Below, one piece after another: positions 5,387 to 24,616 of a stretch of DNA of 32,835 bases (within the stretch, counting starts at the first letter, position 1; each line of letters opens with the position of its first letter). This DNA comes from a virus. Taxonomy: Duplodnaviria; Caudoviricetes. A model generated the notes under the pieces. The model did not search any database, was not told the origin of the DNA, and was given only the letters and a program-made list of their open reading frames with translations. The translations under genes were made by a program, and so were the position numbers. The DNA lies in IMG/VR virus record IMGVR_UViG_3300046710_000543, positions 1 through 32,835 of that record; one strand, written 5' to 3'.

Positions 5387-5590
5387 TCAGTTGAACTTCA
5401 CGTTTTGCGGATGTTTGCAGAACCAGATTTGCAGGTAGCCCCAGGCATCCGCGAATTTGTGCTTCCGTTTGAGGGTAGGACAACAAACGGCCGTATATTC
5501 CAGCAACTCCTTCACCGTCGGGCAGCACACCATCAGAAGCATCGGCGGCGCGTCGGCCAGTTCGGGGAGGAGGGTTTTTATTTTAATCAT
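5387..5590 (-). CDS. Small hypothetical protein (67 aa) with a duplicated VCCPT
   Basis: ATG at 5590 in ATGA overlap with the upstream stop. Confidence 0.6.
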   Translation of the reverse strand: MIKIKTLLPELADAPPMLLMVCCPTVKELLEYTAVCCPTLKRKHKFADAWGYLQIWFCKHPQNVKFN

Positions 5591-6333
5591 TCGGAGTTCG
5601 GAGTTCGGAGTTCGGAGTTCGATGTTCGGAGTTCGATGTTCGGAGTTCGATGTTCGGAGTTCGATGTTCGGAGTTCGTTTCGGGAAAAAGTATTCCGCGC
5701 CGGGATGCTCGCGCCGTTGCAACTTGCCAATTGGCGGGTGGCGGTGTCCTTCTCCGGCGCGGAAAGTTTTTGGTAAAGCGACTTCGATCCACGATGGCCG
5801 CGCGCGAGGAGTGTCAGTCTTTTTGCATGGGCAAACCTTTGAAGATACAAGGCCACGGAAAATTCGCTTAAAACTTTGCCCTCCCGCTCCAGCCGGTTTT
5901 TGAAGTCGAGGATGGTGAACGGCTCCTCTTGCGCTTTTAAAAAGTCGTCCAGGAACCGCACGAGGCGCGCGCTCACGCCCGGCACGCTGCTTTTCCCCGC
6001 GGGCGGCCGGCCGTGAGTGTTCAGCCCGCGCGCGCGTAGTTTAGCTGCTTGGATCTGGCTGGCGGTAATCGGCGGCATCACCACCGGCGCGCTGGTCAGT
6101 CCGGACGCCACGGACCGGGCCAGGTAACGCTTGGCCATTTCAACCTCGGCGGGAGTCACGCCGGCGGAGTCAGCTTTAGCTGCAGTTTCCAAGAGGCTGG
6201 TTAGCGGACGGCGACTTGTTGAAATCCGCCAGACGTGCAGGCACAAGCCGCATTGGACAGTATCGCCCGGACGCGCGACATCGCGACCAATTGACGGCAG
6301 CAACTCCCTGCATTCCGGGCATTGTAATTTCAT
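5587..6333 (-). CDS. Zinc-ribbon plus winged-helix-like protein with a repeat-encoded C-terminal tail
   Basis: ATG 6333 (ATGA overlap); CPEC...CGLC; wHTH-like RLVRFLDDFLK...SLYQK. Confidence 0.7.
   Translation of the reverse strand: MKLQCPECRELLPSIGRDVARPGDTVQCGLCLHVWRISTSRRPLTSLLETAAKADSAGVTPAEVEMAKRYLARSVASGLTSAPVVMPPITASQIQAAKLRARGLNTHGRPPAGKSSVPGVSARLVRFLDDFLKAQEEPFTILDFKNRLEREGKVLSEFSVALYLQRFAHAKRLTLLARGHRGSKSLYQKLSAPEKDTATRQLASCNGASIPARNTFSRNELRTSNSEHRTPNIELRTSNSELRTPNSE
5590..5677. repeat. Heptamer array, 12 units: (TTCGGAG)x4 then (TTCGATG-TTCGGAG)x4
   Basis: Counted directly. Confidence 0.97.
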
Positions 6334-7517: not shown

Positions 7518-7860
7518 ACTGTCTGGATGGCTCCAGGCGTGGTTGGATGAGCACAAGAAAAACGCCCTTTGGCTTTCAAAGGCCATCGGGCTTTCTCACG
7601 TCACTATTGGGAATTATCTAAAGGGGAAATCAGCCCGATCTGACCATGTTGTTAAATTGGCGCAGTTCTTTAAAGTCAGCGCCGACGAGTTGTTGGGTAT
7701 CAAGCCGCCGCAGGCCAATTACGGAGAACACCAGCCGCAGATTATGACGATGCACGATGCCCCGACAAAGAAAGTAATTGCCAAACTGCGCGGACAGGTT
7801 CAAAACCTGCAAAGTCAAATCATCGAAATCAATTCCACCCTCAACGAACTCGAATCATGA
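7501..7860 (+). CDS. XRE-family HTH prophage repressor
   Basis: LSKAIGLSHVTIGNYLKG...KLAQFFKVSADELLG; C-terminal coiled coil; no S24 peptidase domain. Confidence 0.88.
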   Translation: MKEKLQLSGWLQAWLDEHKKNALWLSKAIGLSHVTIGNYLKGKSARSDHVVKLAQFFKVSADELLGIKPPQANYGEHQPQIMTMHDAPTKKVIAKLRGQVQNLQSQIIEINSTLNELES

Positions 7861-8267
7861 AAACCATCCTCTGCATCCTCACCGCCGTCGCGCTGCTGTG
7901 CGGCTGCGGAACAATTGAACAGTCCATGGCACACAAACTGGCGAAAACGGCCAGACTTGAAGATTACGGTCCGCCGCCGCCAACCAACCACGTTGAACTT
8001 GAAGAGTATTTTGTCCGCGCCGGTCTTAAAGACCCAGACAGTGCTCAAATCCGATTCACCAACAGCGTCCCGGCCCCTTCTATTATTCCCAGTGGCTTTG
8101 CCAGTCCGACGCCCCGGTTGATATGGCAGACATTTTTTGAGGTTAACGCCAAAAACTCTTACGGCGGGTACACTGGTTTCAGTCCCTACCTGTTCGCCTG
8201 GCGCGATGGGAAAATGGTCGCCTACATTTCACCGGGCCAAGGTTTTTGGAATTATTTAGCGCCATGA
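7857..8267 (+). CDS. Lipoprotein
   Basis: Lipobox LLCGC; KDPDSAQ...VNAKNSYGGYTG motif. Confidence 0.85.
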   Translation: MKTILCILTAVALLCGCGTIEQSMAHKLAKTARLEDYGPPPPTNHVELEEYFVRAGLKDPDSAQIRFTNSVPAPSIIPSGFASPTPRLIWQTFFEVNAKNSYGGYTGFSPYLFAWRDGKMVAYISPGQGFWNYLAP

Positions 8268-9564: not shown

Positions 9565-10041
9565 ATGAAAAATAAAACCATCCTGTTCGCATCGTTGCTG
9601 GCCATCGGGGCTGGTCTTCTCCTCACCGCCTGCAACACCGCGCCGCGGCGCGACATTGTAGCCATCAAATCTACCGTGCTCGGCTTCGACGTTTCCGCCG
9701 ATGCCGGCACGCAAATTCCGCACGTCCGGCTCGGCCTGGTCAGGAGTTTCTACCAGGTCATTCCCGTTGCCATGAGCACTTCCAATACAGTGGCCTCGGT
9801 GGAAACGCCGAACTACGCCACCAGCATGACGGCGGACATGGGACTCACCAGCCAGCAAGGCTCGGAGGAGTTTGCCACTGGCAATGCGGCCGACTTGCAA
9901 ACCAAGGATAAAACCACCGCACAGATTGGCGCCGCCAAACTTCGCGCGGTTGCAACCGTCTTTACGCCGGCTGGCGCCGTGCCTGTGATTATCCCCGCGC
10001 CCACCAACGCCGTCCCGGTCACCAGCACGAACGCGCCGTAA
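9565..10041 (+). CDS. Lipoprotein, spanin candidate
   Basis: Lipobox LLLTAC; beta-rich; located at the usual lysis position. Confidence 0.75.
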   Translation: MKNKTILFASLLAIGAGLLLTACNTAPRRDIVAIKSTVLGFDVSADAGTQIPHVRLGLVRSFYQVIPVAMSTSNTVASVETPNYATSMTADMGLTSQQGSEEFATGNAADLQTKDKTTAQIGAAKLRAVATVFTPAGAVPVIIPAPTNAVPVTSTNAP

Positions 10042-10075: not shown

Positions 10076-10756
10076 ATGACCGACGCTCGCACCATCTACC
10101 TCTTCGTGAACGGCATTGCCGTCTGGCCCGGCAACTTCACGAACTGGAACAAGCGCGCCGTCACGTTCATCCATACCCAAACGCCACATCGCGCCGAGGC
10201 GTTTGAGTATTTTTGCACGCTCATCACCCGGCCATTCCGCGAGGACCAGCGCGCCAAACATTTCGCCCGCGCCCTCCGCGAATACTCCGCGCGCGGCTGG
10301 CAGATCGTCTGCGTCGGCCACAGCAACGGTTGCGACGTTATCCTGGACGGCCTCAAGCGCGCCGGCTATCTGCGCGTCGAGGCCGTGCACCTCGTGTGCG
10401 GCGCGTGTGAGGCAGACTTTTCGCAGAACGGTTTGAACCATGCCCTGTCCTTTGGCCACATTGGAAAAGTTTACGTTTACAACGCGCTTAAAGATTGGGC
10501 GCTTCCCCTGGCGCACACCCTGCCCGGAAAAATTCTCGGCTACGGCACGCTCGGTTTGGACGGCGCACTGCACATTGCGGAAGACGTAAAAGACCGCGTC
10601 GGTCAACTTTGGTGGGACAGCTACGGCCACTCCACCTGCTGGCTCCCGGACCATTTCCACTGCACGATGAAACACTTTTTTGCCGAGTTGCCCCAAGGAA
10701 TCACCGCCATCGGTCAAAGCCGGCTGCGCCAGCCGGCCTGGGAGGCCCGCCCGTGA
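10076..10756 (+). CDS. Alpha/beta hydrolase (lipase/esterase-like)
   Basis: FVNGI, nucleophile elbow VGHSNG, D in KDWAL, H in YGHS. Confidence 0.85.
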   Translation: MTDARTIYLFVNGIAVWPGNFTNWNKRAVTFIHTQTPHRAEAFEYFCTLITRPFREDQRAKHFARALREYSARGWQIVCVGHSNGCDVILDGLKRAGYLRVEAVHLVCGACEADFSQNGLNHALSFGHIGKVYVYNALKDWALPLAHTLPGKILGYGTLGLDGALHIAEDVKDRVGQLWWDSYGHSTCWLPDHFHCTMKHFFAELPQGITAIGQSRLRQPAWEARP

Positions 10757-10953
10757 TCGACCCCGCCAACATTCCGGCACCGGCGCAGGTACAGTCCACG
10801 TTAAACGCCTGGCATCTCGTCGCGCTCGGCGTCGGCGCGTTCATCACGCACGTCTATCACACCGTCGTCAACGCCGGCGGCGTCAAACAAATCTGGCGCA
10901 ACTTCTGGAGCGGCCCGGCAAAAGACACTCAACCCTCAACTCTCAACCATTAA
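10753..10953 (+). CDS. Small membrane protein, holin candidate, with a repeat-encoded tail (QPSTLNH)
   Basis: GTGA and TAATG overlaps; one hydrophobic segment; array ctcaacc ctcaact ctcaacc at 10928-10948. Confidence 0.6.
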   Translation: MIDPANIPAPAQVQSTLNAWHLVALGVGAFITHVYHTVVNAGGVKQIWRNFWSGPAKDTQPSTLNH

Positions 10954-11294
10954 TGGACCCGAATATCCCGGCCGAAATCTTGAAGTGGACACTCATCACC
11001 CTGGGCGGCCTGTTGGGTCTGGCGGCCATCATCATTGGGATCGTCATGGCGTTCCGTAAGCCGAACAAGGTGAAGCTCGACGACAACCCGGCCATCAAAT
11101 ACGAAAAAGCCCCCAAGCGCTTCAATTTTGAACTCTGCAAAACCCAACACGTCCACCTTGAGCACCGACTAGAAGTGCTTGAGCACTGGCGCGCCGAGGA
11201 GCTGGTCATCAACGCCAAGCGCAACCAAAAGCTCATGTTCGCGCTCGGAAAGATTGCCCAGAAACTGGGCGTGGACATTGAACCCGCCGATTAA
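10953..11294 (+). CDS. Single-TM coiled-coil protein (Mu gp25-like position)
   Basis: N-terminal TM; precedes the gp26/27/28-like genes. Confidence 0.65.
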   Translation: MDPNIPAEILKWTLITLGGLLGLAAIIIGIVMAFRKPNKVKLDDNPAIKYEKAPKRFNFELCKTQHVHLEHRLEVLEHWRAEELVINAKRNQKLMFALGKIAQKLGVDIEPAD

Positions 11295-13759: not shown

Positions 13760-16038
13760 ATCCGGATTTTGCCATCAAGGCGGAAAATTTCCTACGCACC
13801 CAGACCGCCATGCGCGACTGGCACAAGGTCGCCTTCCTGACAAAAGATGTCTCAGACGCCACGCTCGGCCAGGGAAATTTCACCCAGGGCATCCCCGCTT
13901 TTTGGTTCGCCCGCGGCATTGACGGCGGCTCAGGCGATCACCTCTCGCAACCCTACGCCGCCAGCGCCTGGGTCCGGCGCGCCATCAAATTTGTTTCCGG
14001 TCCCATCAGCTCCGTTGACCTGGTGTTTTCCCGGCCGTCATCGAGCACGGCCATGCGCCGACACAAAGGCAAGGGACCGCGCCTCTTCACCGCGCGCGGC
14101 ATTGTGCGCCGCGACGCCACCGCCGAGGTCGAACTGCCTCAGATCCGAGAGTTCCTCAAACAGCCCATGCTCGGCCTCACCTACGAAGATTTTGTCGAGG
14201 CCAGCATCGGCTGGATGAAGTTGCAGGAATGTTTCTGGATCATCGCGGATGAAGGTGCGCGCGTGCCGTTTCCGGAAGTGAAGACGAATCCGTTCGCGCC
14301 CATCATCGTCGCCCGTCCGGACCGGATGCGCGCCACCGTCGAGGCCGGCAAGATCATCGCCTGGAATTTCACCGACGCGAGCGGCAAGGTCTGGGAACTC
14401 GAACCCGAACAAGTCGTGCGCCTCTTCGGCTGGAATCCTTACGACCCGCATCGCGGCCTGGGCGATTATCCCAGCGCGGCCCTGGCCGCCGAGAGCCATC
14501 ACCTCGGCTCCAAGTTCAAACGCAACCTCACGGCGGACAATGATACCGCGCCCATTATCTCCGCAAAAAACGGAACGCCCACCGACACACAGATCGAGCA
14601 GATCAAACTTTCCATTGCCGAGCGGCGCTCGGCCCGCATGCGCGGCAACTCCAAGGCGCTCTTCCTGCCCGGCGAGGTGGACGTGCATGATCCCAAGATT
14701 CTATCCGTGGACGCCGCCTTCATCGCCGGCATGATGGAAGACCGTCACGAAATCTTCATGGCCTTTGGCGTTCCGCCGAGTCTCGCCGACGTGCGCGCGA
14801 GTTATTCCATCGGGCAGGCCAGCGACTGGTTCGCGCTCGTGTTCAATACCTGCATTCCCGAAGGCAACAAGTTTTGCGCCGCGCTCGAATCCCTCATCAA
14901 GCTCCTCACCGGCGAGAGCGTCGAGGTATCGCTCGACTGGGACGATCACTACGTCATGCAGCAGGTCCGCAGCGAACGGATGAAGGATGCGGACAGCCTC
15001 TTCATCAAAGGAATGCCGATGAAGCAGGTGAGTGAGTATCTGAATCTCGGCCTGCCGGAATACGACGAATGGGACCAGGGCTATATGCCCATCAACCTCA
15101 CGCCCGTCAGCGCCGCGCAGAATGAAGCCGCGCAGACCGTCGAGCCGGTCACCACCGATGATTTCGCTGAAGGCGAGCCAACAAAGCCTGGTGAAGCGAA
15201 ACCGCCGGTCACGGCCATGCTGCGCGTTTTGAAAATTGGAAAGCAGAAAGCAGAAAGCAGAAATAAGAAAATATGGGAAGCGCACATGCGGCTGCGCGCG
15301 AAGTCGGTCAAGTTGTTCCAGTCCAAATGCTCGAAGGTCTTTAACGACTACCGCGTGACCGCGCTGCGCCGGTTCGAAGCCGCGCAAAAGTCCGTGGTGG
15401 CGGCGGACCTCACCAGCAAAGGTCTCGTGGACGTGATCTTCAACCCCAAGTTGTTCGGCCTCGACCTGTTCAAGGCGCTCGATCCCGTCATGCGCGCCAC
15501 GCTGCAGACGGCCGGCGATGAACTCCACGACGAGATCGGCCAGGACGATCCCTGGAAAATGGCGCCGCGCCAGGCGATCAACTTCATCAGTCTGCGCGAA
15601 GGAAAAATAAAAGACGTGGGCGAGACCGCCCAGGCGCAGCTTAACAACGCGCTGGCCACCGGCATTGACGCCGGCGAGACCACCGAGCAACTCGCCGGCC
15701 GTGTGCGCGGCGTGTTCAACGATCTGCAAAAGTTCGAGGCCCGCCGGATCGCGATGACCGAGACCAGCGCGGCCTACGGTTTCGCCCGGCACGAGGCCAT
15801 GACCGATGCCGGCATCGAATACAAAGGCTGGCTCACCAGCCACGGTCCCACCGTGCGCGAAGCCCACGCCCAGGCCGAGGCCGATTACGCCGACAACCCG
15901 ATCCCGCTGGACGAGCCGTTCATCGTGGACGGCGAGGAGTTGATGTATCCCGGCGATGAGAGCGGCTCGCCCGAGAACGTGATCAACTGCCATTGCATCC
16001 AGCTCGCCATGAAAAAACCGGAAGGAGAAACCGCATGA
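13756..16038 (+). CDS. HK97-family portal fused to a MuF/SPP1 gp7-like head morphogenesis domain
   Basis: Portal motifs (WVRRAIKF, RPDRM, EIFMAFGVPPSL), then RIAMTET...KGW...VREAH...YPGD...INCHC. Confidence 0.9.
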   Translation: MNPDFAIKAENFLRTQTAMRDWHKVAFLTKDVSDATLGQGNFTQGIPAFWFARGIDGGSGDHLSQPYAASAWVRRAIKFVSGPISSVDLVFSRPSSSTAMRRHKGKGPRLFTARGIVRRDATAEVELPQIREFLKQPMLGLTYEDFVEASIGWMKLQECFWIIADEGARVPFPEVKTNPFAPIIVARPDRMRATVEAGKIIAWNFTDASGKVWELEPEQVVRLFGWNPYDPHRGLGDYPSAALAAESHHLGSKFKRNLTADNDTAPIISAKNGTPTDTQIEQIKLSIAERRSARMRGNSKALFLPGEVDVHDPKILSVDAAFIAGMMEDRHEIFMAFGVPPSLADVRASYSIGQASDWFALVFNTCIPEGNKFCAALESLIKLLTGESVEVSLDWDDHYVMQQVRSERMKDADSLFIKGMPMKQVSEYLNLGLPEYDEWDQGYMPINLTPVSAAQNEAAQTVEPVTTDDFAEGEPTKPGEAKPPVTAMLRVLKIGKQKAESRNKKIWEAHMRLRAKSVKLFQSKCSKVFNDYRVTALRRFEAAQKSVVAADLTSKGLVDVIFNPKLFGLDLFKALDPVMRATLQTAGDELHDEIGQDDPWKMAPRQAINFISLREGKIKDVGETAQAQLNNALATGIDAGETTEQLAGRVRGVFNDLQKFEARRIAMTETSAAYGFARHEAMTDAGIEYKGWLTSHGPTVREAHAQAEADYADNPIPLDEPFIVDGEELMYPGDESGSPENVINCHCIQLAMKKPEGETA
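15229..15270. repeat. In-frame heptamer array (GCAGAAA) at the portal-MuF boundary
   Basis: ttgaaaa ttggaaa gcagaaa x3 taagaaa = LKIGKQKAESRNKK. Confidence 0.85.
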
Positions 16039-16229
16039 GCAAAACTTTCACCAGGGCTTTGCGCCCGGACATCAAGGTCCGCCGGACCGGCTGGCTCGGC
16101 CTGGGCCGCAAAATCGAAGTCAGCGGCGGCGGCCTGACCTATCGCGTGGACCGCAAGGGCGCGAATGCGGACACCGCCGCCGCCATCAACAGTCGCATCC
16201 CGTTCACGACCATCCGCAAACCGCTATGA
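16035..16229 (+). CDS. Small basic protein (64 aa)
   Basis: ATGA overlaps at both ends; AGGAG upstream. Confidence 0.65.
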   Translation: MSKTFTRALRPDIKVRRTGWLGLGRKIEVSGGGLTYRVDRKGANADTAAAINSRIPFTTIRKPL

Positions 16230-16528
16230 TCCGCCACCCGTCACCCGTCACCCGCCACCCGTCACCCTGGAGCGATGCCGGGTCGCTGAAAGCCGTCCGC
16301 CGCGAGATGGTCAAGGCGCGCCTGGCGGACACCGTGGCCGTCTCGATGAGTTTGAGAAATTTCTGGCGGCCGCTGGTCCTCTGGCGCGCCGTCAAGTTCA
16401 TTTTCCGAAACCAGCGCCGGCAGAAGATCCTCGCGCGCCTGTCGCGCGCCCGCATGGGCTTCGCCTGGCGCGATTCGCGTCCGCTCAAACTCCAACGCCA
16501 GCTCGGCCTCAAACCAAAATTATCATGA
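16226..16528 (+). CDS. Very basic 100-aa protein with a repeat-encoded N-terminus (RHPSPVTRHPSP)
   Basis: ATGA overlaps at both ends. Confidence 0.6.
   Translation: MIRHPSPVTRHPSPWSDAGSLKAVRREMVKARLADTVAVSMSLRNFWRPLVLWRAVKFIFRNQRRQKILARLSRARMGFAWRDSRPLKLQRQLGLKPKLS
16231..16267. repeat. Heptamer array CCG(T/C)CAC x5
   Basis: Read directly. Confidence 0.9.
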
Positions 16529-17211
16529 ACACGATTCGCAGAGTCATCCACCCGGCCCTCAAAATTATTGACGAGAAGAATTTCATCGCCGAGTTCACCG
16601 CCAGCGACGAAACCATTGACCTCACCAACGAGGTCATCCGCGCCGGCGGCTGGCGCTTCAAGTTGGCCAAGAAGAATTTCCCGATGGTCAACTCGCACGA
16701 CTATTCCGACATCCGCAATGTCCTCGGCAAGGTCATCGAGTTCGGCGTCGTCGCCGGCAAGCTCATGAACACGGTGCAGTATGCCTGCGACGTGGCGGAG
16801 AATCAGCTCGCCCAGTTCGCCTGGAAGATGACCTTGGCCAAATATCTTCCGGCTGTCAGCGTGGGCCTGGTGCCGCTCCTGGTGGCCACGCGCTGGGACG
16901 CGGACAAAAAAAATTACGAATCACAGCGCGCCGACCTGAAGCTCGCGCGCGAGCAGATGCCCGATGTGATCTACATCGAGCAGGAACAAATCGAACTTTC
17001 GCAATGTGTCATCGGCGCGAACCCCAACGCCGTGGCCAAAGCCTACAAGGCCGGCGTGCTCTCCGATGCCGACCTTGATTTCCTTTCCACCGAAGTTGCC
17101 AGAAACAAAATCGCCGACTCGACCGATGGTCCCGCTGCCGTCGAGAAGGCCCGCCAGCGGGTGCGGATGGCCACCTTGATGGAGTTCACCACGAAAATTA
17201 AAAAATTGTAA
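16525..17211 (+). CDS. HK97-type prohead protease
   Basis: ASDETID, NSHDY (His), AVSVG (Ser), ELSQCVIGANPNA; start ATG 16525. Confidence 0.88.
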   Translation: MNTIRRVIHPALKIIDEKNFIAEFTASDETIDLTNEVIRAGGWRFKLAKKNFPMVNSHDYSDIRNVLGKVIEFGVVAGKLMNTVQYACDVAENQLAQFAWKMTLAKYLPAVSVGLVPLLVATRWDADKKNYESQRADLKLAREQMPDVIYIEQEQIELSQCVIGANPNAVAKAYKAGVLSDADLDFLSTEVARNKIADSTDGPAAVEKARQRVRMATLMEFTTKIKKL

Positions 17212-17212
17212 T

Positions 17213-18718
17213 ATGCACAAACATAAATATCTCAAACCGTTCGCGCTGCCCGTGCTCGCACTCGTCGCGCTGCCACTCCTCCTCTGCATCGCGCTCTTCG
17301 CCTTCGTCATGCTGCCCGCCGCGGCCCAGGCCGGCGTGAGCTGCGCCATCGCACCGCTCGTCATCCCCAAGGGCAAGGCGCTCACGGATGAGGAATTCCA
17401 GGCCACACTCTTCGGCGGCGTCAACTCGCTCATCGAAGAGCAGGGCACCTTCAAATCCGCGCAACAGAAAATCCTCGATGACCTCGGCCGGTCCGACAAG
17501 GAAGTCAAGGCCTCGCTCGAAGACCTGACCAAGGTCAAGAACACCACCAACGCCACGTTCGAGGACATCATGAAGCGCATGGAAAAGGTGCAGCGCCAGG
17601 TGATGCTGAACAGCCGCTCCAGTTTCCGCTCGCCCATCGAGCGCGCGTTGGCTAGCGAGGAATTCCGGTTCAACCTCAACGCCATCGCCCGCTATTTGCT
17701 CGCGCAAAAAGACGGCAGCCTGGATCGCCTCGATCCCGCGTTTAAAAAGGCCGTGGACGATTACCGGCCCAAAGCCAAGGCACTCACCGGCGTTGACACC
17801 GGTCTCGGCCAGGCCACCGTGCCCACCGATACCTTCAACGAGATTTACGATCTCCTGTTGGAGTACGGCGATTACGCCACGCTCGGCGTGCAGCGCGTCG
17901 GCGCCCGCGTGAACGTCCTGCCCATTGCCACCAGCCGTCCGCAGTTTTACTGGATCGGCTCGCAAAGCACATTAGCGGAAGGTTCCACCATCACCAGCGG
18001 CGCCTTCACCGGCGGCCAGGTGATCAACATCATCAACACCTGCGCCGTGCTCATGTACGTCGCCCGCGAACTGCTCGCGGATTCCACCGTGGATCTCGCG
18101 CCTTACGTGATCCGGCAGATGGTCGAGTCCGCCAACTGGGGTCTGGACACCGCCGCCTTCATCGGCACCGGCAACATGGACACCACCAACGCCGGCTACG
18201 TCGGAATTTTCAACGCCGCGCTGGCCAACACGAACCTGGCTTGCGCCGCCGGCGCTGGCCGCACGACAGCCGGCATCCTGAAGATTGACGACTTTGTCAA
18301 CACGGTCCTCACCGTGTCGGCCCAGGTGCTCAATCGCAAACCCATGTGGTGGATGCACCCGCAGATGCTCGCCCGCATCGCGCTTATCCGCGATAACAAC
18401 GGCCGCCCGATCTTCCAGACCTGGCAGGAAGTGCCCAACCCCGGCAGCATCGGCAGCATTCTCGGCTACCGCATCCATCCCACGGCCATCGCGCCCACTA
18501 CGGACGGAGCCAGCCAGCCCGTCGCCGTCTTCGGCGATCCGCAAGGCCAGAGCGTCTGCATCCGCGAAGATTTGGAACTGGCCACCAGCGACGACATCGG
18601 CTTCCCGCAAAACCTGCGCGCCTTCCGCGCGCTGGTCCGCGCCGGTGTAAAAATCAAAACCCTCCCCGCGAGCACCACGCTCAAACCCTTCGCCGTCCTT
18701 TCGACCGCCGCGGCATAA
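17213..18718 (+). CDS. HK97-family major capsid protein with a hydrophobic N-terminal extension
   Basis: Coiled-coil delta domain, TVPTD..EI, ELLADS, DTAAFIGTG, WWMHP, RDNNGRPIF, ILGYRI, VFGD. Confidence 0.92.
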   Translation: MHKHKYLKPFALPVLALVALPLLLCIALFAFVMLPAAAQAGVSCAIAPLVIPKGKALTDEEFQATLFGGVNSLIEEQGTFKSAQQKILDDLGRSDKEVKASLEDLTKVKNTTNATFEDIMKRMEKVQRQVMLNSRSSFRSPIERALASEEFRFNLNAIARYLLAQKDGSLDRLDPAFKKAVDDYRPKAKALTGVDTGLGQATVPTDTFNEIYDLLLEYGDYATLGVQRVGARVNVLPIATSRPQFYWIGSQSTLAEGSTITSGAFTGGQVINIINTCAVLMYVARELLADSTVDLAPYVIRQMVESANWGLDTAAFIGTGNMDTTNAGYVGIFNAALANTNLACAAGAGRTTAGILKIDDFVNTVLTVSAQVLNRKPMWWMHPQMLARIALIRDNNGRPIFQTWQEVPNPGSIGSILGYRIHPTAIAPTTDGASQPVAVFGDPQGQSVCIREDLELATSDDIGFPQNLRAFRALVRAGVKIKTLPASTTLKPFAVLSTAAA

Positions 18719-18809: not shown

Positions 18810-19841
18810 ATGAAAACTGAACACGAAATCAAAGCTCTTCCACTGGAAGAGAAACAGAAGCTCGTCATCGAGCTGCGCGCCATCAAACCCGGCGACAAGG
18901 CTTACGCCAACGCCAAAGCCATCATCGAACTCATCACCGGCCATTCCAAGTGGAAGGAGCCGAAGACCTTCGAGGTATTAAACATAACCAGCCACGACGT
19001 CAGTGTGGATGGCAACATCATTGCCCCCAATGCCACCGGCAAGATATACTTCTGGCAATATCTGGCGCTCGCACGCTTTTTGGAAGCTGCCCCTGAGTTG
19101 GAGGAAGAATTGGCCGTCAGAAAAGATGCATTCTGGGCACTCGAAGCAAGAAGCGCCGCATTGGCACCCAAGCCCGAAGCGCAAAATATCGCCGATACTG
19201 TCAAGACGGCCATTGCCGACGGCTTTGCCAGTCTTAAAGAGAACGCCGGCAAGGTTGCCGCGCTTATCGCATTGCTCGGCTGCCTGTTGTTTGCCTCCGG
19301 CGCGCAGGCGCAGGTGCAAACCACGGCCGTCGGCTCCGCCGGCAACTACCACACCTACTACGTCGCCGGCCTCAACGGTGGCACCAACAACATCGCCGCC
19401 GCCACCACGGCCGGGTTTACCGTGCCGGTCACCACCACGACGGGCATCATCACCAATGCCAGTTGGAACTTTTCCAACGGCATCTGGACCAACACGCTCA
19501 CCTTCACTACTAACACGAGCGTCAACGTTCCCGGCCTCCTCGCAATCCCCAACGTTGACCAGTTTGCGCTCACGTTCGGAGGCGCTTCCGTAACCGCGTC
19601 CAATGTCCTCGAAACCGCGAGCGTTGACTATTCGCCCGACTCCATCAACTGGCAGACCAACAAATGGTCGCTGATCATTACCACCATCGGCGTCGGCCAG
19701 GTCACCACCAACGTAGATGTGAACGGCTGTAACGGCGGGTACCTCCGGCTAAACAGCATCATCAACAGTTCCATGTACTACGCGCTGACCAATATCTTTT
19801 TCGAGGTCAGCGCCAAGGCCAGCCGCACCGGCCCGTTCTGA
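18810..19841 (+). CDS. Decoration/cement-like protein with an internal signal-peptide-like segment
   Basis: Follows the capsid gene; KVAALIALLGCLLFASGAQA at about aa 148-167; C-terminal YSPDSINW...GYLRL beta-sandwich pattern. Confidence 0.7.
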   Translation: MKTEHEIKALPLEEKQKLVIELRAIKPGDKAYANAKAIIELITGHSKWKEPKTFEVLNITSHDVSVDGNIIAPNATGKIYFWQYLALARFLEAAPELEEELAVRKDAFWALEARSAALAPKPEAQNIADTVKTAIADGFASLKENAGKVAALIALLGCLLFASGAQAQVQTTAVGSAGNYHTYYVAGLNGGTNNIAAATTAGFTVPVTTTTGIITNASWNFSNGIWTNTLTFTTNTSVNVPGLLAIPNVDQFALTFGGASVTASNVLETASVDYSPDSINWQTNKWSLIITTIGVGQVTTNVDVNGCNGGYLRLNSIINSSMYYALTNIFFEVSAKASRTGPF

Positions 19842-22713: not shown

Positions 22714-23796
22714 ATGAACTCTTTTTTACTGGGTTGTTTGGTTGCCTTGTTGTTCAACTTTCCGGCCCGCGCCGTCTACTTCGGCACCAACATTCCCGGC
22801 AACATCCCGCAGGCCAGCGTGTTCGCCACCAACATTCCCGGCAACATCCCGCTGTTCAGCGGCTACCAGTACTCAAACGTTGTTGCCGGCTTTTCCATCT
22901 TGCGAACGGCAACGAATTATTGGCTGAACACGGGGGCGCTGGTATCGGTGGAGTTGACCAATGGCGGGGCCTGGCGCATTGGTGGCAGCTGGATCGTGTC
23001 GAACGTCGCGGTGAGCGGCGGCGTGTCGCTGGTTATTACCTGCAGCCAGTATCTCGGTTTCACCACCGCGAATCACGACCTGCACGGCAATAAACTTTTA
23101 GGCCAGCATAACCTGACGAACAGAAACTTCGTAACCGTGTCTTGCGCCGGTGGACAATTCGACGCGACCCTTCCCGGCACTTACAATCCAGAATGTGAGA
23201 CGTTGACCGGCGATGTGTTCACCTGTTCTTGCTCGGGCGGCTTTACCAACTTTGATCTAAATTTTGATGGAGACAATGAGCCTTATTACAACGGTTGGAG
23301 AGTGATCGAACGGGCCGCGTTTTTGTCGTTCTATGGTGGCATTGGGTTCCATCCGACCACGGGAAGTTATTTCTCGGCACCCTCAGCCGAAATCACGCCC
23401 GGAGCCAATTACGCCGAATTCGATTTAAGTTCGGGCGGGTACGTTCTCGTCTGCGACATTGGGCAGTTCGATTGCCACAACAAAAATTTTAACATGCTGG
23501 ACCCCGGCGATGGTGGAGGGATCATTTTCACGCGGCCGACTTATTTCACAAACTGGGCTGTTAACGGCATGCAACTGATCAGTTGCCCGGCATTGGCCGG
23601 GATGGCTTATACGAACGGCGTGGCGATAGCCAACCCACAGTTGAACTTCGTGGCATTGAGAACGAATGCCTGGACTGCCTCCGAACTTTCGCCGGGGAAC
23701 GGGTTTGGCTTGTGGCATTCCAACCGGACGGACTTGTACTTCAATCGGAACTCAGCGGGCACGATCCAAACGTATAAAATCGGCTCAATTCCGTAA
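22714..23796 (+). CDS. Exported Thr/Asn/Cys-rich protein
   Basis: Signal peptide ending PARA; TNIPGNIP twice (26-nt duplication, 22785-22810 and 22827-22852). Confidence 0.8.
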   Translation: MNSFLLGCLVALLFNFPARAVYFGTNIPGNIPQASVFATNIPGNIPLFSGYQYSNVVAGFSILRTATNYWLNTGALVSVELTNGGAWRIGGSWIVSNVAVSGGVSLVITCSQYLGFTTANHDLHGNKLLGQHNLTNRNFVTVSCAGGQFDATLPGTYNPECETLTGDVFTCSCSGGFTNFDLNFDGDNEPYYNGWRVIERAAFLSFYGGIGFHPTTGSYFSAPSAEITPGANYAEFDLSSGGYVLVCDIGQFDCHNKNFNMLDPGDGGGIIFTRPTYFTNWAVNGMQLISCPALAGMAYTNGVAIANPQLNFVALRTNAWTASELSPGNGFGLWHSNRTDLYFNRNSAGTIQTYKIGSIP

Positions 23797-23809: not shown

Positions 23810-24616
23810 ATGAACAACACAAAAAAGAATCTGCTTTCTGCTTTCCGCCGGCCCGTGAAGTCTTTGCTCCTTGCTTCACTGGGCTGCTTTCTGCTTTGGC
23901 TTTTCCCGGCCAGCGCCCAATTTTCAACCAATCCCATCGGCACCATCCCAGCCACCAACAGTTTCGGGACCAATGCTTATCTTTGGGGGACGAACAGCCA
24001 GGCATTTACCACCAACAAGCCAGGCAATATCTCGCCGACCAACGCCTTCGGGACCAACGCGATCCACTTTGGCACCAACAGCACCGCGTTTGCCACGAAC
24101 GCGCCGGGGACCGCATCGCTGCCGCTGCAGACGAATATTTATCTGGTCGGGACCAATCTGGTCACCAACATCTTTTCCGGCCGGTTCTCCACCAACGCGC
24201 CCGGCAATCGCACAAACTCCGGCACGTTCACCGGAACGGCGGGACGGATCGCAATCATTACGGGTGTCAGCAATTTGGTGACGACGATCATGACGAATTA
24301 TTCATTAATCGTGAGCAATGCCGGCTGCTCCTCCATGAACGGGTTCTATGACTGGACGGGAAACAATTACTACGTGATGCCCGGCGGCACGAACATAATT
24401 GACTGGCGCTCCTACCCCCCCAGCACGCTTAAAAGCAATTCCACCGTCGAATATCTCTCCGGCGGAACTCTTACAGGTACCTATGGCACGAACAGTTACG
24501 GAAGCACTTATCCCGTTGGGATTGGTCCTCTGCCGACAGTTTTGGATTCTGCAACGCGGTTTGTCCTGTCAACCAATCTGGCCAGTACCATCAGTTACAC
24601 CACCAATTATCCCTAA
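23810..24616 (+). CDS. Exported TN-repeat protein
   Basis: ATG 23810; signal peptide ending PASA; 19 TN dipeptides counted. Confidence 0.8.
   Translation: MNNTKKNLLSAFRRPVKSLLLASLGCFLLWLFPASAQFSTNPIGTIPATNSFGTNAYLWGTNSQAFTTNKPGNISPTNAFGTNAIHFGTNSTAFATNAPGTASLPLQTNIYLVGTNLVTNIFSGRFSTNAPGNRTNSGTFTGTAGRIAIITGVSNLVTTIMTNYSLIVSNAGCSSMNGFYDWTGNNYYVMPGGTNIIDWRSYPPSTLKSNSTVEYLSGGTLTGTYGTNSYGSTYPVGIGPLPTVLDSATRFVLSTNLASTISYTTNYP

What the first reader, a model, noticed from the sequence alone, without database searches (positions are those of the whole stretch)
17213..17380. Major capsid protein starts with a roughly 44-residue hydrophobic, membrane-type segment
Seen: MHKHKYLK, then PFALPVLALVALPLLLCIALFAFVMLPAAAQAGVSCAIAPLVIP, then KGK, before the coiled-coil delta domain. 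The ATG is 1 nt after the protease stop, which favours this start. Known: HK97 delta domains are soluble and removed by the prohead protease. Inference: either a helical hairpin (basic residues on both sides) that tethers procapsid assembly to the inner membrane until cleavage, or an SPase I signal (AQA at residue 40). Either would be a non-canonical head assembly route.
Basis: partly seen in the sequence, partly recalled or inferred. Interest (0 to 1): 0.8.

Follow-up and report, generated by a model that had tools for sequence, protein, structure and literature searches.

The report
Optional membrane-type leader on phage capsid
The capsid gene of this uncultured peat phage encodes an extra greasy front piece that near-identical relatives lack, and which likely pins new shell subunits to the cell membrane until it is cut off, a step I found described for no tailed-phage capsid protein.

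Summary
The HK97-fold capsid protein (17213-18718, 501 aa) has a basic start, a hydrophobic stretch (P9-P52) and KGK before a helical delta domain. The leader looks translated: the first ATG has the best start context in 23 of 23 leader-bearing loci, and dN/dS is 0.27-0.57. It is optional: 24 of 81 DNA-checked loci have it, 50 lack it, and capsids 97-98% identical occur with and without it. Leader types move between capsid lineages. A classical SPase I signal is not supported: a site followed by polar sequence occurs in 2 of 58 leaders against 37 of 46 control signals. Best reading (0.45): a temporary inner-membrane anchor, cut off in the cytoplasm. Two new leads: K-A-L-T occurs only after the leader and at the delta/fold junction, and a small basic gene X (16226-16528) was found only with hydrophobic leaders. 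Nothing is shown by experiment. The scan noted similar leaders before on other phages.

The parts
17213..17236 (+). Basic N-region of the capsid precursor (M1-K8)
   Evidence: Sequence; net charge of at least +2 before the helix in 55 of 58 leaders
17237..17314 (+). Hydrophobic helix h1 (P9-L34), predicted membrane-spanning
   Evidence: KD19 3.02; summed insertion scale -3.5 for residues 14-32 (scale recalled); AlphaFold helix 5-36
17315..17332 (+). Turn P35-A40 with AQA (38-40); a permissive SPase I site, not conserved across the family
17333..17368 (+). Short second hydrophobic stretch h2 (G41-P52), with a recurrent Cys
   Evidence: KD11 2.23, KD17 1.23; Cys after the helix in 40 of 58 leaders; pLDDT under 50 at 39-53
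17369..17386 (+). KGKALT (53-58): basic stop and candidate protease site K55/A56
   Evidence: KAL occurs only at 55 and 189 in the protein; present in 7 of 9 close type-A leaders, 0 of 108 non-hydrophobic leaders; cleavage is inferred
17387..17779 (+). Helical delta (scaffold) domain, D59-K189
   Evidence: AlphaFold helices 59-192
17780..18718 (+). HK97-fold capsid domain; candidate mature start A190
   Evidence: PF05065 199-482; TIGR01554 114.9 bits, cut-off 27.5; Foldseek hits to GTA, actinophage and HK97 capsids, E 1e-12 to 1e-9
16525..17211 (+). Prohead protease, S78-like (228 aa)
   Evidence: ESM Atlas features and structure; found upstream of the capsid gene in the 132 usable loci, a condition of their selection
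16226..16528 (+). Gene X: about 90-100 aa, basic (net +16 to +21 in three homologs), with an amphipathic W/F-rich helix; candidate partner of the leader or delta domain; start codon uncertain
   Evidence: 26 homologs, no Pfam domain; co-occurrence; moment 0.8
18810..19841 (+). Next gene: N-domain, internal signal helix with A-Q-A/Q, jelly-roll C-domain; used as the SPase I control

Best explanation
The capsid gene of this Verrucomicrobiota-type phage encodes an optional, exchangeable hydrophobic leader that likely works as a temporary inner-membrane anchor and is likely cut off in the cytoplasm before the shell closes. Shown from sequence: the leader is under purifying selection, keeps its basic-then-hydrophobic make-up while its letters drift, and is present or absent on near-identical capsids. 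Inferred: (1) h1 inserts with the basic N-terminus inside; h2 dips back so that KGK and the rest stay cytoplasmic. (2) This concentrates new subunits at the membrane, where portal-nucleated assembly starts in T4 and SPP1. (3) A cut at the leader/delta border frees the subunit; in the query's type the candidate is K55/A56, a copy of the K189/A190 junction, so the phage's own S78 protease is the likely enzyme. (4) Protein X may assist types A, D and E; types B and C do without it.
For: dN/dS 0.57, 0.27, 0.46 for leader types A, B, C; GC3 0.73-0.82 as in the rest of the gene; first ATG outscores every start after residue 12 in 23 of 23 loci. Basic N-region in 55 of 58, helix median 18 residues against 13 for control signals, second hydrophobic stretch in 56 of 58. 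Sequence after the helix is hydrophobic (median KD 1.60) where true signals are polar (-0.12). KAL only at 55 and 189; K-[AS]-L at the delta/fold junction in at least 82 of 146 located junctions; HK97 is cut at K103/S104 (PMC10275583). Leaderless relatives begin at or near the same border, so the leader is removable in principle. Membrane-bound procapsid precursors exist in SPP1 and T4 (PMC13212656 discussion; PMC3185693 passages).
Against: No membrane, cleavage or expression data exist. 50 of 81 loci manage without a leader, so any benefit is modest. Delta domains point into the shell, so the anchor must go before closure, whereas HK97 removes its delta domain after assembly (bioRxiv 10.1101/2022.09.09.507160 passage). 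The K-A-L-T copy is limited to type A (7 of 9; absent from types B-E) and may be a chance product of a basic residue before a helix cap. h2 is a poor membrane segment in the query (+5.9) and only 33 of 58 leaders have a 17-residue h2. AlphaFold gives no confident hairpin. No trained topology predictor was available.
Confidence: 0.45

Rival explanations
1. Procoat-like route: h1 is a long Sec/YidC signal, SPase I cuts after A40 on the periplasmic side, and the short h2 plus KGK stops transfer, so the subunit slips back into the cytoplasm starting at G41.
For: The query has Pro35 and AQA at the expected distance; 11 of 12 type-A leaders have a permissive -3/-1 site. The same phages use textbook SPase I signals in the next gene. 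Filamentous-phage coat proteins are processed this way (PMC3185693).
Against: A-x-A is at chance level over all leaders (13 of 58, 11.3 expected); only 2 of 58 sites are followed by polar sequence; K/R follows the helix in 25 of 58.
Confidence: 0.17
2. No membrane: the leaders cluster inside the procapsid as a hydrophobic extension of the delta scaffold, and X shields them until assembly.
For: Delta N-termini point inward and bundle in HK97. X identity follows the leader and the delta domain (rho 0.90 each) more than the fold (0.65). X was found only with hydrophobic leaders.
Against: The leader's letters are poorly conserved (37-55% within a type), unlike a packing surface; the positive N-flank fits a membrane rule; types B and C have no X; leaders swap between capsid lineages.
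Confidence: 0.15
3. The released leader is itself the product: a small membrane peptide made one-to-one with capsids that acts on the membrane (lysis timing or exclusion).
For: Its make-up resembles a minimal two-segment membrane protein (recalled likeness to small holins). By eye I saw no clear holin or endolysin among the ORFs between 3.9 and 11.6 kb.
Against: The window is not the whole phage (37,791-base contig on record). Leaderless relatives were not shown to carry a substitute gene (one search covers only about 3 kb each side). No direct test.
Confidence: 0.1
4. A tolerated, nearly neutral extension that is removed with the delta domain and has no function.
For: Lost or replaced many times (14-17 changes on trees of 79 loci, 24 with leader); dN/dS higher than in the fold for types A and C.
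Against: dN/dS stays below 0.6 and strong hydrophobicity is kept in several divergent types; a neutral extension would not be expected to stay membrane-like or to travel with X.
Confidence: 0.1
5. The segment is not translated; the protein starts at M33 or later.
For: Several type-C, D and E leaders have a Met just before the delta start, so a second start is possible there.
Against: Start context 11.5 for M1 against -8.7 for M33; stops in the other frames in 23 and 17 of 23 leaders; codon-type substitution pattern; frame-preserving gaps.
Confidence: 0.03

Closest known systems
HK97 gp5 with delta domain and gp4 (S78) protease
   Same: HK97 fold, helical N-terminal scaffold domain, adjacent S78-like protease, Lys before a small residue at the junction (HK97 K103/S104; PMC10275583 passages).
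   Different: About 55 extra residues with a membrane-type helix precede the delta domain; optional and exchangeable; a second K-A-L-T after the leader.
Membrane-associated head assembly of T4 and SPP1 (PMC3185693 passages; PMC13212656 abstract and discussion)
   Same: Head assembly would begin at the inner face of the cell membrane.
   Different: There the link goes through the portal (SPP1 gp6; T4 connector chaperone) and the SPP1 authors call the mechanism unknown; here the candidate anchor is on every capsid subunit.
Filamentous phage procoat (f1/M13 pVIII; PMC3185693 passages)
   Same: Coat precursor with an N-terminal leader that inserts into the inner membrane.
   Different: pVIII keeps a full transmembrane helix and is extruded; this is an HK97-fold shell protein with a short h2 and no conserved SPase I site.
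Staphylococcus phage 80alpha capsid and scaffold leaders cut by host Prp (PMC5744158, abstract only)
   Same: An N-terminal piece on the capsid protein that is dispensable (pre-cleaved and uncleavable capsid mutants are viable). The short leaders of some relatives may be of this kind.
   Different: Those leaders are short and, as I recall, not membrane-type; Prp is described for Firmicutes (PMC9261936, search listing).

Membership tests
HK97-family capsid protein with delta domain | HK97 fold | tested here: met
   PF05065, TIGR01554 above cut-off, Foldseek
HK97-family capsid protein with delta domain | Helical N-terminal scaffold domain fused to the fold | tested here: met
   Predicted helices 59-192
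HK97-family capsid protein with delta domain | S78 prohead protease gene upstream | tested here: met
   ESM Atlas 0.97-0.98 and TM 0.62 to PF04586 clusters; no HMM hit
HK97-family capsid protein with delta domain | Delta domain removed by the protease | not testable with these tools
   Only the K-[AS]-L junction motif
SPase I (Sec) signal peptide | Basic n-region and hydrophobic h-region | tested here: met
   55 of 58 basic; h median 18 against 13 in controls
SPase I (Sec) signal peptide | Conserved A-x-A after the h-region | tested here: inconclusive
   Present in the query and permissive in 11 of 12 type-A leaders; at chance level over 58 leaders
SPase I (Sec) signal peptide | Polar mature region after the site | tested here: not met
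   2 of 58 against 37 of 46 controls; query KD 1.9 after AQA
Lipoprotein (SPase II) signal | Lipobox ending in Cys | tested here: not met
   1 of 58 leaders match; the query reads G-V-S-C; pattern recalled
Tat signal | Twin arginine in the n-region | tested here: not met
   No Arg in residues 1-58 of the query
Two-helix membrane hairpin | Second segment long enough to recross the membrane | tested here: inconclusive
   Query h2 KD17 1.23 and +5.9; 33 of 58 leaders reach KD17 1.6
Membrane-associated head assembly (T4, SPP1) | Precursors seen at the membrane | not testable with these tools
   Uncultured phage; no match covering 80% of the protein among 50,697 phage records
Prp-cleaved capsid leaders (80alpha) | Prp motif and a host Prp | not tested
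   Not searched in the host group

The most novel reading that the evidence does not exclude
Leader and gene X form a mobile two-part module that builds HK97-type heads from membrane-anchored subunits: the basic amphipathic X binds the membrane and the leader, and the phage protease releases each subunit at a duplicated K/ALT site. With the internal-signal gene behind the capsid gene, this would make the inner membrane a staging platform for the whole head.
Probability: 0.18. Interest if true: 0.82.

Novelty: new variant of a known kind. Interest (0 to 1): 0.57.

Why it matters
How tailed-phage heads attach to the membrane at the start of assembly is open; the SPP1 tomography paper calls the mechanism unknown. 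A capsid-borne anchor would be a different solution from the portal-based one. This family offers natural matched pairs (capsids 97-98% identical with and without the leader) and a candidate partner gene and cut site, so the question can be tested by expressing portal, protease and capsid in a laboratory strain. The limits are that the leader is dispensable in most relatives, the phage is uncultured, and the scan has noted this kind of leader in several other phages.

Tried and rejected
Literature: five searches aimed at a membrane or signal leader on a tailed-phage capsid protein (listings and abstract starts only) showed no paper describing one; the library lacks most subscription papers, and no supplements were read. 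A TldD-based search listed no paper with that term. ESM Atlas on residues 1-110 gave only hits of 0.84, uninformative. X has no PHROG, NCBIfam or precomputed Pfam hit. L168 was a false X hit in an unrelated phage; the L053 hit came from a short repeat outside the portal-protease interval. Clustering leaders by identity merged 56 of 61 into one group, so types A-E are hand-made motifs. Presence of the internal-signal next gene does not follow the leader (12 of 16 against 19 of 27). No RNA holder was listed. A structure prediction of X with the leader and the HMM search of protein representatives were not available, so binding of X and the wider spread of such leaders remain open. A phylum-wide genome sample found only the centre genome (1 of 401); the order-level sample found 15 of 401. 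Among the 15 new loci read, two new ones had hydrophobic leaders on capsids only 34-41% identical, one repeated L099, and two were protease-capsid fusions without a leader.

Full report
Observation. P9-P52 has no charged residue; AQA is 38-40, KGK is 53-55, the internal Met is 33, and the upstream stop lies 1 nt before the ATG. The protein is an HK97-fold capsid protein: PF05065 at 199-482, TIGR01554 above cut-off, Foldseek hits to GTA, actinophage and HK97 shells. AlphaFold gives a helix at 5-36, a low-confidence coil (39-53), delta helices 59-192, then the fold. The upstream gene is S78-protease-like by ESM Atlas only. Contigs of two runs agree with the window over the leader (possibly the source samples). 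The best DNA holders are peat metagenomes. Relatives in genome records are titled Verrucomicrobiota, so the host is inferred. The layout (AAA_22 gene, portal fused to a Mu gpF domain) suggests a transposable phage; I did not test this further.

Is it translated? In three leader types with DNA, dN/dS was 0.57 (7 loci), 0.27 (4) and 0.46 (3), against 0.21, 0.27 and 0.17 in the fold; GC3 was 0.73-0.82; the other two frames held stops in 23 and 17 of 23 leaders. A start-context model trained on 44 short-leader or leaderless loci scored the first ATG above every start beyond residue 12 in 23 of 23 loci (query 11.5 against -8.7 for M33). In five loci a start at residues 9-11, still ahead of the helix, scored higher. 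The model mostly measures A-richness, so it supports the start but does not prove it.

How general is it? Of 120 listed homologs (138 found), 114 were long enough to score, and 51 had a hydrophobic N-terminus. Gene calls can be wrong, so I read starts from DNA. Of 162 loci, 30 were dropped (13 cut, 12 without the protease in view, 4 weak, 1 without ATG); 132 collapsed to 81 distinct proteins, the window's own included: 24 hydrophobic, 7 intermediate, 50 short or none. Ten leaderless genes start overlapping the protease stop, so they are real. P0016 (protein record only, start not read from DNA) and L002 are 98% identical over 452 residues; L002 alone has a leader of about 74 residues. L016 and L109 are 97% identical in the fold and 87-90% in DNA over portal, protease and capsid, but only L016 has the leader. 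Presence changes 14-17 times on trees of 79 loci (shuffled mean about 21). On 36 chosen rows, AU tests rejected one clade for type A (p 2e-5), type C (1e-7) and leaderless (8e-66); the groups were named after I had seen a first tree. So the leader is a module that is lost and exchanged. Several short leaders equal the C-terminal end of type-B leaders, which fits loss by deletion; direction was not tested.

Signal peptide or anchor? The gene after the capsid gene gave an internal control: in this family it carries an N-terminal or internal signal ending A-x-A/Q. A-x-A within 10 residues after the helix occurred in 31 of 46 controls (6.7 expected) and 13 of 58 capsid leaders (11.3 expected); a lipobox in 1 of 58. 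A permissive -3/-1 site occurred in 32 of 58 leaders and 38 of 46 controls, but was followed by polar sequence in 2 of 58 and 37 of 46. Leaders have longer helices (median 18 against 13), a basic N-flank (55 of 58) and a second hydrophobic stretch (56 of 58 at 11 residues, 33 of 58 at 17). Against my reading, 11 of 12 type-A leaders, the query among them, do have a permissive site in the turn, so a procoat-like cut stays possible. These are home-made rules; no trained predictor was available. In the query h1 scores -3.5 and h2 +5.9 on a recalled insertion scale: one good membrane helix plus a short re-entrant piece, not a clean hairpin.

How would it come off? In HK97 the scaffold domain lines and projects into the shell interior and is cut at K103/S104 (PMC10275583, passages). 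An anchor on every subunit therefore cannot persist in a closed shell. KAL occurs twice in the query, at 55 and at 189, the delta/fold junction, where K-[AS]-L is found in at least 82 of 146 located junctions (23 of 169 not located). Seven of 9 close type-A leaders carry this motif after h2; none of the other hydrophobic types and 0 of 108 non-hydrophobic ones do. This points to the phage protease but may be coincidence, since A-L-[TS]-D-E also occurs without the Lys. It would also need the protease to act before closure, which is not how HK97 behaves.

A companion gene. Among 23 neighbouring ORF families, one tracked the leader: X (16226-16528), in 8 of 23 leader loci and 0 of 36 others (p 2e-4, uncorrected, rows not independent). 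Over loci with the portal-protease interval it was in 8 of 23 hydrophobic, 0 of 6 intermediate and 0 of 45 short or leaderless loci. An HMM over all loci hit nine distinct ones, all with hydrophobic leaders, L149 judged by eye. L109 lacks both X and the leader, which lie on opposite sides of a protease gene shared at 88% DNA identity, and type A with X spans three protease lineages. X was not found in four further genomes or records without a type-A leader. Against a core role: types B and C have no X, and X identity follows the delta domain as closely as the leader (rho 0.90 each, 11 pairs). Binding was not modelled.

Comparison with what is known. It is a member of the HK97 capsid family with a delta domain. 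It would work like membrane-associated head assembly in T4 and SPP1, but there the link is the portal (PMC3185693 passages; PMC13212656 abstract and discussion). The 80alpha capsid leader is also dispensable (PMC5744158 abstract). Five literature searches listed no description of a membrane-type leader on a tailed-phage capsid protein. Earlier notes of this scan report such leaders in six other genomes; they are unchecked and not used as support. None matched this sequence.

Verdict. A real, selected, optional and exchangeable hydrophobic leader; most likely a temporary membrane anchor (0.45); SPase I, internal scaffold, active peptide and neutral readings follow. New variant of a known kind; interest 0.57.

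Noticed in passing
window 18810-19841: Gene after the capsid gene: an N-domain of about 145 aa (weak likeness to the DUF7210-type small ORF at this position in relatives, hhalign probability 37%), an internal signal helix with A-Q-A/Q, and a jelly-roll domain (generic Z 7-9). In many relatives the jelly-roll protein stands alone with a textbook N-terminal signal peptide. A likely exported head-cluster protein; the fusion would leave the N-domain membrane-anchored.
   Followed up: partly
window 22714-23796 and about 23813-24616: Two Thr/Asn/Gly-rich ORFs among the tail genes begin with signal-peptide-like sequences ending P-A-x-A; no PHROG or NCBIfam hit.
   Followed up: no
L007, L026, L109 and other short-leader loci: Short leaders of the form R-I-L-x-D followed by a Gly/Asp-rich run match the C-terminal end of type-B hydrophobic leaders; a possible separate processing motif.
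   Followed up: partly
L221 1498-3276 (-), L222 1483-3135 (-): Related protease and capsid fused in one ORF with a short delta region and no hydrophobic leader, in two bacterial genomes; L222 lies beside a ferritin/VIT-like gene by eye.
   Followed up: no
window 16035-16229: A 64-aa basic ORF between portal and X, common in the closer relatives whatever their leader (17 of 23 against 11 of 36); no PHROG hit.
   Followed up: no
window about 16230-16270 and about 5590-5680: Short tandem repeats of about 7 bases inside or at the ends of ORFs; the first matches many unrelated contigs in the same samples, so it looks like a host-type dispersed repeat and makes the start of X uncertain.
   Followed up: no
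window 7857-8267, 9565-10041, 10076-10756, 10953-11294: Two lipoprotein-like ORFs, an alpha/beta-hydrolase-like ORF and a single-helix membrane ORF before the terminase genes, all by eye; no clear endolysin or holin seen.
   Followed up: no
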